From NCBI RefSeq assembly GCF_030013205.1, contig NZ_CP122648.1: a stretch of 64,000 nt of DNA; one strand, written 5' to 3'. How positions within the stretch are numbered: the first letter of the stretch is position 1; every line of letters starts with the position of its first letter. Origin of the DNA: Escherichia coli. GTDB taxonomy: Bacteria; Pseudomonadota; Gammaproteobacteria; Enterobacterales; Enterobacteriaceae. Positions 14,701 to 17,700 of this stretch are shown piece after piece. Position numbers: made by a program.

Positions 14701-17700
14701 AAGCTGCTCGATAAGCTGCCGGATGTGGTTTAAGGAGGAACAATGTCATACCCACTTTTTGACAAAGACGAGCACTGGCATAAGCCAGAGCAGGCGTTTC
14801 TCACCGATGACCACCGGGCCATTCTGCGCTTCGCCGTAGAGGCGCTAATGTCCGGTAAAGGAGCGGTGCTGGTGACGCTGGTGGAGATACGCGGCGGCGC
14901 GGCGCGCCCGCTCGGAGCACAGATGGTAGTGCGCGAAGATGGTCGTTACTGCGGTTTTGTCTCTGGCGGCTGCGTGGAGGCCGCTGCCGCTTTTGAAGCG
15001 CTGGAGGTGATGGGCTCAGGCTGCGATCGCGAAATTCGCTATGGCGAAGGTTCGCCGTGGTTTGACATCGTTCTGCCCTGCGGCGGTGGGATCACGCTGA
15101 CGCTCCATAAACTACGCTCGGCACAGCCTCTGCTCGCCGTGCTGAACCGCCTGGAACAGAGAAAACCGTCGGGTCTGCGCTACGATCCGCAAGCTCAATC
15201 GCTGGTGTGCCTGCCCACGCAAACCCGGACGGGCTGGAATCTCAATGGCTTTGAGGTGGGGTTCAGGCCATGCGTCAGGCTGATGATTTACGGACGTTCT
15301 CTTGAGGCGCAGGCAACCGCGAGTCTTGCAGCAGCCACAGGATATGACAGCCATATCTTCGATCTTTTTCCGGCCTCAGCCAGCGCTCAGATCGATACCG
15401 ATACGGCGGTCATTTTGCTGTGCCATGATCTCAACCGGGAGCTGCCAGTGTTGCAGGCCGCGCGAGAAGCAAAACCCTTTTATCTCGGCGCATTGGGCAG
15501 CTATCGAACCCACACTTTACGTCTGCAAAAGCTCCACGAGCTGGGATGGTCCAGGGAGGAGACAGAGCAAATCCGGGCACCTGTCGGGATATTCCCCAAA
15601 GCCCGGGATGCGCATACTCTGGCCCTTTCCGTACTGGCAGAAGTCGCCGCTGTACGTCTCCGTCAGGAGGATTCATGCCTGCCCCCATCGTCCTGATCCT
15701 CGCGGCGGGGCGTGGGGAGCGCTTCCTCACCTCCGGGGGAAATACCCATAAATTAAGAGAAAAATCTGCAGTAGCCGTTTAAGAAAATCACCTAAATCGT
15801 TTAAAAGAGCGCCCAACCCATAGTGGGCGCTTATCGCCTTGTGTAACTTATTCAGCAACGCGCGCCTCGCCGGACTAAAGCGCACCGGCCTTCTGGCGTG
15901 CGGTAACAAAGGTCAGTACGCCAGCGCAAAGGAGCAGCACGCTACTCATAGCAAACGTGCTCTGCCAGCCAAGGCGGTCAAACACAATGCCTCCTGCCGT
16001 TGATCCAAGGGCGATGGCGAGCTGAATCACCGCGACCATGAGCCCGCCTCCAGCTTCGGCGTTGTCAGGCAACGTACGCGCAATCCATGTCCACCATCCG
16101 GTTGGCGCGGCGGTGGCCAGCATGCCCCAGAGTCCTAACAGCAGCGAGACCGTCCAGACGTGATGCCCGGTAAGCATCAGACCGATGGCAATGACGGCCA
16201 TCAGTCCGGGTATGGCCATCAGCGTGGGGTAGAATTTTCTGTTGAGAAATGCCGAAACAACCAGCGTGCCAATAAAACCGGCCACGCCGATAATCAGCAA
16301 AATCGACGACAAGCCTAAGGAATTAACCCGTGTCACCGACTCCAGAAACGGGCGCACATAGGTGAATAGTGCAAACTGCCCCATGAAAAACAGGCCACAA
16401 GCTATCATGCCGACCACAACCATGCGGCGGCTAAATAAGCGGAATACCGCGCCACATGAAGTGTGGCTTTTATTCGCATCCATGCTTGGCAGGCTGATGC
16501 ACTGCCAGATAAAGGCGACAACCGCGATGGGCACCAGGCACAAGAAAGCGCCTCGCCATCCGACCGTAGCCCCCAGATAGCTTCCCAGCGGTGCGGCCAC
16601 GACCGTCGCCAGCGCATTACCGGCGTTGAAAATTGCCAGCGCACGCGTGACCTGATGCTGCGGCACCAGACGAATCGCCGTTGCCGCTGACATCGACCAG
16701 AATCCGCCAATAGCCACACCAATCATCGCACGACCGACCATATACATCAGATAACTGGAAGCCAGCGCAATAATAAGCCCCGATACGGCCATCAGAACCG
16801 TCATCCCCAGCAGCAGGAACTTACGATTCATCTTTCCAGCTAGCGTTGAAAGCGTCAGGCTGGTCAGAACCGCCAGCGCGCCGGAGATAGCAATCCCCTG
16901 CCCTGCCAGCCCCTCCGTCACGCCTAAATCGCGGGTAATCGGCGTGAGCAGGCTGACGGGCATAAATTCAGAAGCAATCAGCACAAACACGCACAGGGTC
17001 ATGGCAAAAATACCGCCCCAGTATGCGCGCTGATGATGAGGTGATAGTGTTTGGCTTAGTGTCGACATAGTGAAATTTCACAAAGATCAGGATAAAAGCC
17101 ACCAGCCTATGGCCGGTGGCTTTGCATCAATTCAGGAGAGGTTTTATTTCAGTTTGGTCTGGAAAAATTGTTCGAACTTCGCGAAAGGTATTTTTCCGGC
17201 CACGTTATCGTACAGGTCCACGTGATTTGCCCCTGGTACCACCACCAGCTCTTTGTCTTTACTGCCAACCGCCTTGTAAGCATCTTCAGCAAAATAGCGT
17301 GAATGCGCTTTCTCACCGGTCACAATCAGCGTCGGGATGGTGATTTCACTGGCGTAGCTCAACAGCGGCATATTCATAAATGACAGCGGCATCGTTGCCG
17401 TCCACGCCCCGGTAGAGTTAACGGAACGTTCGTGGAAGCCGCGCGGCATGCGATAGTAGTCAAAGAACTCTTTCAGTACCGGATGAGGATTTGCCGGCAG
17501 CGTTTCTGGCAGAATACGATCGCCCGCACTGACCTTGCCGTTGCTGTCGACATTAATATCATGACCACCATGAGCGAACGTTCCGCTCTGCGCATCCTTC
17601 CAGCGCTGTTCATTCAGATATTGCAGAACAGCACGACGGTCGGCGGTAGAATAACGGTCTTTGCCATCCCCCACACCATGGCCCATCGCCCGGCTCATGT

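What the first reader, a model, noticed from the sequence alone, without database searches (positions are those of the whole stretch)
15675..15782. Remnant of a MocA/MobA-like cytidylyltransferase gene right after paoD
A perfect SD (AGGAGG) precedes an ATG overlapping the paoD 3' end, and the ORF opens with MPAPIVLILAAGRGERF, the N-terminal motif of MobA-like nucleotidyltransferases, then stops after 35 codons just before the MFS terminator. PaoABC uses the molybdopterin cytosine dinucleotide cofactor, so an ancestral pao operon with its own cytidylyltransferase gene that was later deleted is a sensible reading.
Basis: partly seen in the sequence, partly recalled or inferred. Interest (0 to 1): 0.45.

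Follow-up and report, generated by a model that had tools for sequence, protein, structure and literature searches.

The report
Leftover stub of a lost MocA-like gene
The 35-codon reading frame after E. coli paoD is the dead stub (first 27 codons) of a MocA-like nucleotidyltransferase gene that nearly all related bacteria still carry intact at that spot; it is an ordinary pseudogene remnant, but one that databases mislabel as a LysR regulator.

Summary
AGGAGG (15665-15670) precedes an ATG at 15675 that overlaps the paoD end by 22 nt. The ORF reads MPAPIVLILAAGRGERFLTSGGNTHKLREKSAVAV* and stops at 15782.

In 20 of 28 usable PaoD loci from other bacteria, a full-length 180-197 aa gene with a MobA-like NTP transferase domain starts at the same overlapping position. 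Its best NCBIfam match is MocA, below the curated cutoff. Seven more loci carry such a gene next to paoD in another arrangement.

A profile of those proteins hits the 64-kb window once, at the remnant (E 3.8e-10, profile positions 1-28). DNA homology to the relatives stops at 15755.

The sequence right of the junction is the last six codons and terminator of an alpha/beta hydrolase gene. That gene lies downstream of the intact MocA-like gene in the closest relative, so the stub comes from an internal deletion of about 2 kb or more.

None of 5,426 complete E. coli genomes keeps more than nucleotides 1-81. Alleles show start-codon loss, frameshifts and motif substitutions.

K-12-type strains had a second 6.1-kb deletion, producing the chimeric 136-aa YagP. 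Interest is modest.

The parts
14743..15696 (+). paoD, the XdhC-family molybdenum cofactor insertion chaperone and last intact gene of paoABCD. Its last 22 nt overlap the remnant ORF.
   Evidence: Translation; RefSeq annotation of the 100% identical strain K_EC180.
15665..15670 (+). AGGAGG Shine-Dalgarno sequence of the former downstream gene. It lies inside the paoD coding sequence, 4 nt before the ATG.
   Evidence: Sequence. The same arrangement (GGAGG..ATG overlapping the paoD end) occurs in L004 and L006, where the downstream gene is intact. It is mutated to AGGATGAGG in strain M00057.
15675..15755 (+). Remnant proper: codons 1-27 (MPAPIVLILAAGRGERFLTSGGNTHKL) of a MobA/MocA-like nucleotidyltransferase gene, containing the N-terminal glycine-rich nucleotide-binding motif LAAGxGxRF.
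   Evidence: Family HMM hit with E 3.8e-10 at profile positions 1-28. tblastn identity of 52-89% to the starts of full-length genes. DNA homology to L004, L044 and L046 ends at 15752-15755. E. coli genomes match only nt 1-81 of the L004 gene.
15755..15756 (.). Deletion junction. The intact relative reads CATAAATTA|GCCGC and the window reads CATAAATTA|AGAGAAAAATC. One nucleotide (A) could belong to either side.
15756..15774 (+). Tail of a deleted alpha/beta hydrolase gene: the last codons ..EKNLQ plus TAG at 15772-15774, in a different frame from the remnant ORF.
   Evidence: Window 15755-15854 is 97% identical to the 3' end and terminator of an intact hydrolase gene in E. coli FDAARGOS_1373 (L033 7956..9020). 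A 96% identical protein is encoded just downstream of the intact MocA-like gene in L004 (5947..7017).
15756..15782 (+). Non-homologous tail of the 35-codon ORF (REKSAVAV*), produced by reading the hydrolase tail out of frame through to a TAA.
   Evidence: The tail differs among alleles: EDL933 stops after 26 codons, M00057 runs on to 49 codons, and K-12 is fused to LysR sequence.
15808..15831 (-). Hairpin AGCGCCCA(N8)TGGGCGCT, followed on the minus strand by CTTTT. It is a terminator-like element for the convergent MFS gene and, originally, for the hydrolase gene.
   Evidence: Sequence; fold; conserved next to the intact hydrolase in L033. Not called by the simple terminator scan.
15875..17002 (-). 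Convergent MFS transporter gene, the right-hand neighbour after the deletion.
   Evidence: RefSeq annotation (L001 7176..8303); ORF list.

Best explanation
Window 15675-15755 is a non-functional 5' stub (27 codons) of a MocA-like nucleotidyltransferase gene of the MobA-like NTP transferase family, probably a molybdopterin cytidylyltransferase. That gene was once the fifth gene of the pao cluster and was translationally coupled to paoD. An internal deletion of about 2 kb or more joined codon 27 to the last six codons of a downstream alpha/beta hydrolase gene. This removed the remaining roughly 157 codons of the transferase gene and most of the hydrolase gene. The 35-codon ORF is an accident of that join. 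The strong SD and the ATG persist mainly because they sit inside, or immediately next to, the still-selected paoD coding sequence. E. coli could tolerate the loss because the unlinked MocA (YgfJ) makes the MCD cofactor and passes it to PaoD. That last step is inferred from published work, not shown here. In K-12-type strains a second 6.1-kb deletion between two CATAA motifs fused the stub in frame to the C-terminal 110 codons of a LysR gene, which created the annotated 136-aa 'YagP'.
For: Shown by tool results. (a) Intact 180-197 aa genes start at the same overlapping position after paoD in 20 loci from other Enterobacterales, and 27 of 28 usable PaoD loci have a MocA-like gene adjacent. (b) The four scanned are PF12804 proteins (E about 1e-25) whose best NCBIfam model is MocA_YgfJ at 79-95 bits, against about 18-20 bits for MobA where MobA appears at all. 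(c) A family profile hits the window only at the stub (E 3.8e-10). (d) DNA homology to relatives runs through the whole pao operon at 89-94% identity and stops at 15752-15755. (e) The right flank matches the 3' end of a hydrolase gene that follows the intact transferase gene in L004, so both flanks are syntenic and only the interior is missing. (f) No complete E. coli genome (0 of 5,426) matches beyond nt 81 of the gene. (g) The alleles are decaying. 88COLEC has ATG changed to ATA plus two frameshifts; EDL933 has a 1-nt deletion; M00057 has a mutated SD and an extra A; K-12 has R16C; USMARC-50748 has E15K and G21E. Divergence between the window and K-12 is 12-17% in the 59 stub-only nucleotides, against 1.7% in paoC and 2.9% in paoD. 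(h) The K-12 junction maps to a CATAA microhomology, with the full-length LysR gene present in EDL933. From the literature: PaoD receives MCD from MocA (PMC3909100), and XdhC-type chaperone genes are paired with MocA homologues in other bacteria (PMC2997495).
Against: In this window's allele the SD, the ATG and the 35-codon frame are all intact, so translation of a short peptide cannot be excluded. The 35-aa peptide alone reaches no Pfam or NCBIfam threshold. The intact relatives score well below the curated MocA equivalog cutoff (79-95 versus 186 bits) and none has been characterised, so cytidylyltransferase activity is inferred. The exact size of the deletion and the genome in which it occurred are not fixed, because the possible undeleted configurations differ: about 2.0 kb if L004-like, about 6.7 kb if like the Salmonella contig L044.
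Confidence: 0.93

Rival explanations
1. Truncated on arrival. The pao block reached E. coli by horizontal transfer on an island or ICE associated with thrW, and the deletion in the transferase gene happened in the donor element, so E. coli never had an intact copy. This differs from the best explanation only in timing and place. The stub is still a remnant.
For: The region between yagU and tRNA-Thr (28917-28992) is hypervariable. About 1,700 E. coli genomes lack pao altogether, with homology ending at window ~10652, and carry other island DNA there. Homology to the E. oligotrophicus pao locus starts at almost the same point, 10649. A Salmonella contig carries a 5'-truncated paoD plus the intact MocA-like gene beside integrase, TraI and UvrD genes; it is 94.3% identical to window 14900-15755. 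The PaoD-pattern scan of species representatives returned no locus titled with a named Escherichia species. Its closest hit, a 'Pluralibacter' MAG, is 91.6% identical in DNA.
Against: Every pao-positive E. coli shares the same left junction, and the K-12 type is derivable from the O157/window type. That fits a single old event but does not say where it occurred. No att repeat of thrW was found at the left boundary. No donor carrying the already-deleted allele was found.
Confidence: 0.3
2. Functional micropeptide. The 35-codon ORF, with a consensus SD and translational coupling to paoD, is expressed and has a role of its own, for example in paoD expression or stability, or as a small protein.
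For: AGGAGG lies 4 nt upstream of the ATG and the start overlaps paoD. The exact 35-aa sequence is called as a gene on at least 1,000 contigs in public data.
Against: The ORF is not conserved among E. coli strains. The start codon is lost in 88COLEC. Frameshifts occur in EDL933 and 88COLEC. M00057 and K-12 have different tails. Substitutions fall in the motif. Divergence is 4-8 times that of the neighbouring genes. The last 8 codons are a frame accident.
Confidence: 0.04
3. Chance resemblance. A glycine-rich ORF in GC-rich DNA merely looks like an NTP-transferase N-terminus.
For: Pfam and NCBIfam give no significant hit for the 35-aa peptide alone.
Against: The position, frame and start are identical to intact genes in 20 relatives, with 52-89% identity. 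The profile E-value is 3.8e-10. DNA-level colinearity runs up to codon 27.
Confidence: 0.01

Closest known systems
MocA (YgfJ), the CTP:molybdopterin cytidylyltransferase of E. coli (NCBIfam TIGR03310; Pfam PF12804 MobA-like NTP transferase domain)
   Same: The intact paoD-linked genes of relatives have a full PF12804 domain, and MocA_YgfJ is their best-scoring NCBIfam model (79-95 bits, E 1e-22 to 1e-27), far ahead of MobA at about 18-20 bits. The stub keeps the N-terminal LAAGxGxRF nucleotide-binding loop. The genetic context fits, since PaoABC uses MCD and PaoD takes MCD from MocA (PMC3909100).
   Different: The scores are well below the equivalog cutoff of 186 bits, so this is a separate subfamily or paralogue. 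It is physically linked and translationally coupled to paoD rather than sitting in the ygfJ locus. No biochemical data exist for it. In E. coli only 27 of about 184 codons survive.
XdhC-chaperone / MocA-homologue gene pairs: B. subtilis pucA-pucB, Arthrobacter pAO1 xdhC-mocA, Oligotropha carboxidovorans xdhC-mocA
   Same: The organisation is the same: a Moco-insertion chaperone of the XdhC family is co-transcribed with a MocA-like transferase (PMC2997495). PucB (TIGR03202) is the third-best model for the intact relatives.
   Different: Those pairs are intact and lie in other enzyme clusters (xanthine, nicotine and CO dehydrogenases). Here the pair belongs to the periplasmic aldehyde oxidoreductase operon, and in E. 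coli the transferase half is destroyed.
E. coli K-12 YagP (b0282), annotated 'putative LysR family substrate-binding domain-containing protein'
   Same: Its first 26 residues (MPAPVVLILAAGRGECFLASGGNTHK) are the same MocA-like stub, with the same SD and ATG after paoD.
   Different: A second 6.1-kb deletion at a CATAA microhomology fused the stub in frame to the last 110 codons of a LysR gene that is intact in O157:H7. The window strain has the earlier, unfused form.

Membership tests
MobA-like NTP transferase domain family (Pfam PF12804) | Significant match of the sequence itself to the PF12804 profile | tested here: not met
   The 35-aa peptide gives no PF12804 hit even at E up to 10. At 27 homologous residues it is too short. 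The claim of membership is therefore 'remnant of', not 'member'.
MobA-like NTP transferase domain family (Pfam PF12804) | Positional orthologues (same start, same frame, same upstream gene) are full-length PF12804 proteins | tested here: met
   Twenty loci have 180-197 aa ORFs at the paoD end. Four were scanned and all matched PF12804 with E 9e-26 to 2e-24, covering profile positions 1-157 of 160. A profile of these proteins matches the stub at E 3.8e-10.
MobA-like NTP transferase domain family (Pfam PF12804) | N-terminal glycine-rich nucleotide-binding loop (LAAGxGxRF/M...K) | tested here: met
   The stub reads LILAAGRGERF..HKL. L9, A10, G12, R16, F17, G21, H25, K26 and L27 are invariant in the alignment with eight intact relatives. 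That this loop binds the nucleotide comes from general knowledge of the fold and was not tested.
MocA / YgfJ molybdenum cofactor cytidylyltransferase (NCBIfam TIGR03310 equivalog) | Score at or above the curated equivalog cutoff (186.45 bits) | tested here: not met
   The intact relatives score 79-95 bits. MocA_YgfJ is the best model but the scores are below the cutoff. They should be called MocA-like, not MocA.
MocA / YgfJ molybdenum cofactor cytidylyltransferase (NCBIfam TIGR03310 equivalog) | CTP-specific transfer of CMP to Mo-MPT, giving MCD | not testable with these tools
   This needs enzyme assays or complementation of a mocA mutant. The context (an MCD enzyme operon, coupling to the MCD-binding chaperone PaoD) is only suggestive.
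Pseudogene / gene remnant | Truncation relative to intact orthologues, with an identifiable breakpoint | tested here: met
   Homology ends at 15755, which is codon 27 of about 184. Both flanks were identified in relatives.
Pseudogene / gene remnant | Relaxed constraint: disabling mutations and elevated divergence among alleles | tested here: met
   Start-codon loss, frameshifts, an SD mutation and motif substitutions occur in different strains. Divergence is 12-17% in the stub against 1.7-2.9% in paoC and paoD. Only seven E. coli alleles besides the window's were read, so this is a small sample.

The most novel reading that the evidence does not exclude
The intact paoD-coupled genes of other Enterobacterales define a dedicated, uncharacterised MCD synthase (a fifth pao gene, 'paoE') that hands cofactor directly to PaoD. 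If so, E. coli, the model organism for PaoABC and MocA biochemistry, is an atypical degenerate case in which the housekeeping MocA took over after this gene was lost. A more speculative version is that the surviving stub, or the K-12 YagP chimera, is still translated and interacts with PaoD.
Probability: 0.35. Interest if true: 0.45.

Novelty: new member of a known kind. Interest (0 to 1): 0.3.

Why it matters
Four modest points follow.

1. The pao cluster typically has five genes (paoABCD plus a coupled MocA-like transferase). The four-gene E. coli operon, on which all the biochemistry has been done, is a degenerate form. This may bear on cofactor loading when PaoABC homologues are expressed heterologously.

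2. It gives a clean, fully reconstructed example of stepwise gene decay beside a tRNA island hotspot: intact gene, then 27-codon stub, then in-frame chimera.

3. It corrects an annotation error. The first 26 residues of K-12 'YagP' are not LysR-derived, and the 35-aa ORF is labelled 'LysR-type transcriptional regulator' in many GenBank records purely by transfer from that chimera.

4. RefSeq does not annotate the stub at all.

None of this changes how molybdoenzyme maturation is understood.

Tried and rejected
- **Pfam and NCBIfam scans of the 35-aa peptide.** No hit; the peptide is too short.
- **Simple terminator and promoter scan of 15500-16000.** Nothing was called. The hairpin was examined by folding instead.
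- **A shared recombination hotspot or mobile-element end.** I considered this to explain why the K-12 junction and the window junction lie 2-4 nt apart. I rejected it in favour of an ordinary second deletion at a CATAA microhomology, once EDL933 was found to hold both partners.
- **K-12 yagP fragment versus the window's LysR gene (18467-19351).** I asked whether they were the same gene. They are not: 28% aa identity and no DNA match.
- **A thrW att-like repeat at the left edge of the pao block (~10650).** None was found.
- **Literature searches for paoD/mocA and for yagP.** No prior description of the remnant turned up. The two key MocA papers were not held.
- **Other pieces of the gene elsewhere in the window.** None were found.
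Full report
**What is in the sequence**

The window is E. coli. Positions 14700-17100 are 100% identical to swine strain K_EC180 and related ETEC strains. RefSeq annotates this stretch as ykgJ, yagU, paoA, paoB, paoC and paoD on the plus strand. These are followed by a convergent MFS transporter gene, an alpha/beta hydrolase gene and a LysR gene.

paoD occupies 14743-15696. AGGAGG lies at 15665-15670 and an ATG at 15675, 22 nt before the paoD stop. The frame reads MPAPIVLILAAGRGERFLTSGGNTHKLREKSAVAV and ends with TAA at 15780-15782.

A hairpin at 15808-15831 follows. 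On the minus strand its stem is followed by CUUUU, which suits a terminator for the MFS gene. The simple scan did not call it. Nothing is annotated between paoD and the MFS gene.

**Is the resemblance real?**

On its own the 35-aa peptide is too short for the curated libraries; Pfam and NCBIfam return nothing relevant.

A scan of one genome per species (100,044 species) with PaoD returned 29 loci. In 20 of them an ORF of 180-197 aa begins overlapping or abutting the paoD stop, on the same strand. Its first 24-27 residues are 52-89% identical to the E. coli peptide, with E-values down to 5e-12. The genera include Leclercia, Enterobacter, Silvania, Siccibacter, Pseudenterobacter, Dryocola, Cedecea, Kosakonia, Citrobacter sedlakii, Pseudocitrobacter, Pseudescherichia and a 'Pluralibacter' MAG.

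Four of these ORFs were scanned:
- All contain a complete MobA-like NTP transferase domain (PF12804, E about 1e-25).
- Their best NCBIfam model is MocA_YgfJ (TIGR03310, 79-95 bits). The DVU_1551 NTP-transferase family (NF045665, 65-77 bits) comes next and PucB third. MobA scores about 18-20 bits where it appears at all.
- The MocA scores are below the curated equivalog cutoff of 186 bits, so 'MocA-like' is the defensible name.

A profile built from the 20 proteins, run against the six-frame translation of the whole 64-kb window with filters off, gives a single significant hit. It is this ORF, at profile positions 1-28 (E 3.8e-10); the next hit has E 1.5. No other fragment of the gene survives in the window.

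The same profile finds a MocA-like gene next to paoD in seven further loci: three convergent (Pantoea, E. ludwigii) and four on the same strand (Asaia). Only one usable locus lacks it (Erwinia sp. 198). The pairing is therefore the rule and E. coli is the exception.

**The junction**

DNA homology between the window and the relatives runs through the entire pao operon and stops at 15751-15755:

| Relative | DNA identity to the window |
|---|---|
| Salmonella contig L044 | 94.3% |
| L004 ('Pluralibacter' MAG) | 91.6% |
| E. oligotrophicus L046 | 89.5% |
| Leclercia, Enterobacter, Silvania | about 77% |

L004 reads ...ACCCATAAATTA|GCCGCATTG, continuing into codon 28 of its intact gene. The window reads ...ACCCATAAATTA|AGAGAAAAATC. 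Only codons 1-27 are therefore homologous. The tail REKSAVAV comes from different DNA.

That DNA was identified. Window 15755-15854 is 97% identical to the last 20 nt (..KEKNLQ*) and the terminator of an intact alpha/beta hydrolase gene in an island of E. coli FDAARGOS_1373. In the window this tail is read in another frame, which produces the accidental stop at 15780.

In L004 the gene that follows the intact MocA-like gene encodes a hydrolase 96% identical to that protein, ending ..KQKNLQ*. Both sides of the E. coli junction are thus neighbours of an intact transferase gene in a close relative. This is the signature of an internal deletion.

Measured on L004, the missing segment is about 2.0 kb (5017-6996). 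Measured on the Salmonella contig, which has additional genes between the two (hydrolase, two-component system, cupin, CMD, flavodoxin), it would be about 6.7 kb. The true size depends on the unknown ancestor.

**State across E. coli**

- Of 5,426 complete genomes, 3,598 have the paoD 3' end.
- None matches the L004 gene beyond nucleotide 81.
- About 912 genomes have the window arrangement, with the stub next to the MFS gene.
- About 2,690 have the K-12 arrangement.
- About 1,700 lack pao entirely. In these, homology ends just after yagU, near window position 10652, and other island DNA follows.

The stub is decaying:

| Strain | Change |
|---|---|
| 88COLEC | ATG changed to ATA, plus two 1-nt deletions |
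| EDL933 | 1-nt deletion and E15K |
| M00057 | SD mutated, plus an extra A that changes the tail |
| K-12 | R16C in the motif |
| USMARC-50748 | E15K and G21E |

Between the window and K-12, divergence is 1.7% in paoC and 2.9% in paoD. It is 12-17% in the 59 nt that belong only to the stub. The stub is not under selection as a coding sequence.

**The K-12 twist**

In K-12-type strains the homology to the window stops 2-4 nt earlier (CATAAG|TGTATC). The ATG then reads in frame into 110 codons of a LysR substrate-binding domain, giving a 136-aa ORF. An exact look-up shows that this is the protein UniProt calls YagP.

EDL933, which has the window-type arrangement, carries the full-length LysR gene 6.1 kb downstream. 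There the sequence ...AATCATAAGTGTATCGG provides a CATAA microhomology with the stub's CATAAA. K-12 YagP is therefore a chimera made by a second deletion: 26 residues of MocA-like sequence plus a LysR C-terminus.

As a side effect, the 35-aa ORF of window-type strains is labelled 'transcriptional regulator LYSR-type' in many GenBank records. That is annotation transfer from the non-LysR part of YagP.

**How it most likely works**

It does not work; it is a fossil. The ancestral arrangement was paoABCD followed by a translationally coupled MocA-like gene. PaoABC carries the molybdopterin cytosine dinucleotide (MCD) cofactor, PaoD binds MCD, and PaoD receives it from MocA (PMC3909100).

XdhC-family chaperone genes are paired with MocA homologues in B. 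subtilis (pucA-pucB), Arthrobacter pAO1 and O. carboxidovorans (PMC2997495). A dedicated transferase next to paoD therefore makes biochemical sense. Its loss in E. coli is plausibly tolerated because the unlinked mocA (ygfJ) supplies MCD.

The remnant, its breakpoint, the synteny and the decay are shown. Cytidylyltransferase activity of the intact relatives and compensation by MocA are inferred.

**Rivals**

- A functional micropeptide is unlikely, given the loss of the start codon and the frameshifts in other strains (confidence about 0.04).
- Chance resemblance is excluded.
- The one open question is where the deletion took place. The locus lies in the hypervariable stretch between yagU and tRNA-Thr at 28917-28992. 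The pao block's left homology boundary (10649) coincides with the boundary in pao-less strains. A Salmonella contig carries part of paoD and the intact gene beside integrase, TraI and UvrD genes. The block may have entered E. coli already truncated. I give that about 0.3, and it does not change what the stub is.

**Novelty and score**

I found no description of this remnant in the papers searched, and RefSeq does not annotate it. It is a new instance of a very familiar kind of thing: a pseudogene stub of a known family in a known type of gene pairing.

It is of some use to Moco biologists, since it points to a probable fifth pao gene in relatives. It is also of use to annotators, since YagP is a chimera and the 35-aa ORF is mislabelled. 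Interest is 0.3.

Noticed in passing
L002 3179-3589 (E. coli K-12 / XL1-Blue; equivalent to window 15675-15751 plus non-window DNA): K-12 YagP (136 aa, 'putative LysR family substrate-binding domain protein') is an in-frame chimera. It joins 26 codons of the MocA-like stub to the last 110 codons of a LysR gene, and arose by a 6.1-kb deletion at a CATAA microhomology. The LysR gene is intact in EDL933 (L037 5834..6733).
   Followed up: yes
window 15675-15782: The exact 35-aa ORF is present on at least 1,000 public contigs. Several GenBank records name it 'transcriptional regulator LYSR-type', apparently by transfer from the MocA-derived N-terminus of YagP. RefSeq/PGAP leaves it unannotated.
   Followed up: yes
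window ~10649-10655 (intergenic yagU-paoA): About 1,700 complete E. coli genomes (for example O18 and JBEHAAB-19-0176) lose homology to the window here. They carry integrase fragments and other island DNA (the Vat PAI, a CbtA/YeeU island) instead of pao. Homology to the Enterobacter oligotrophicus pao locus starts at the same point. The pao block may itself be old island cargo in the yagU-thrW variable region. No thrW att repeat was found at this edge.
   Followed up: partly
L044 4788-6117 (Salmonella enterica GCA_011508625.1 contig): A 5'-truncated paoD plus an intact MocA-like gene, 94.3% identical in DNA to window 14900-15755. They sit next to integrase, UmuD-like, UvrD-helicase and TraI genes, which looks like an ICE carrying a fragment of the pao cluster without paoABC.
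   Followed up: partly
window 15846-15854, compared with L033 9100-10819: Relative to the FDAARGOS_1373 island, the window lacks a 1.7-kb module (a second MFS gene plus an Lrp/AsnC regulator) between the hydrolase terminator and the 3' end of the MFS gene. The two alignments overlap by 9 nt, which suggests another short-homology indel.
   Followed up: no
window 15660-15670: There is a 3-nt length polymorphism in the SD / PaoD C-terminus: CGTC---AGGAGG in the window against CATCAGGAGGAGG in K-12, EDL933 and L004. It makes PaoD 317 aa here and 318 aa there.
   Followed up: no
window ~19563-19631, 19785-21474 and from 21758 (from L001 annotation; window = L001 + 8699): Downstream of the LysR gene lie a ykgR fragment pseudogene, an AbiEii/AbiEi toxin-antitoxin pair and a type I restriction system, before tRNA-Thr(CGT) at 28917-28992. 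This looks like strain-specific defence cargo in the thrW-proximal variable region.
   Followed up: no
L032 (contig titled 'uncultured Clostridium sp.' UMGS1851): This contig is 98% identical to window 12843-14896 (E. coli paoC-paoD). It is almost certainly E. coli contamination or mis-binning in that MAG.
   Followed up: no
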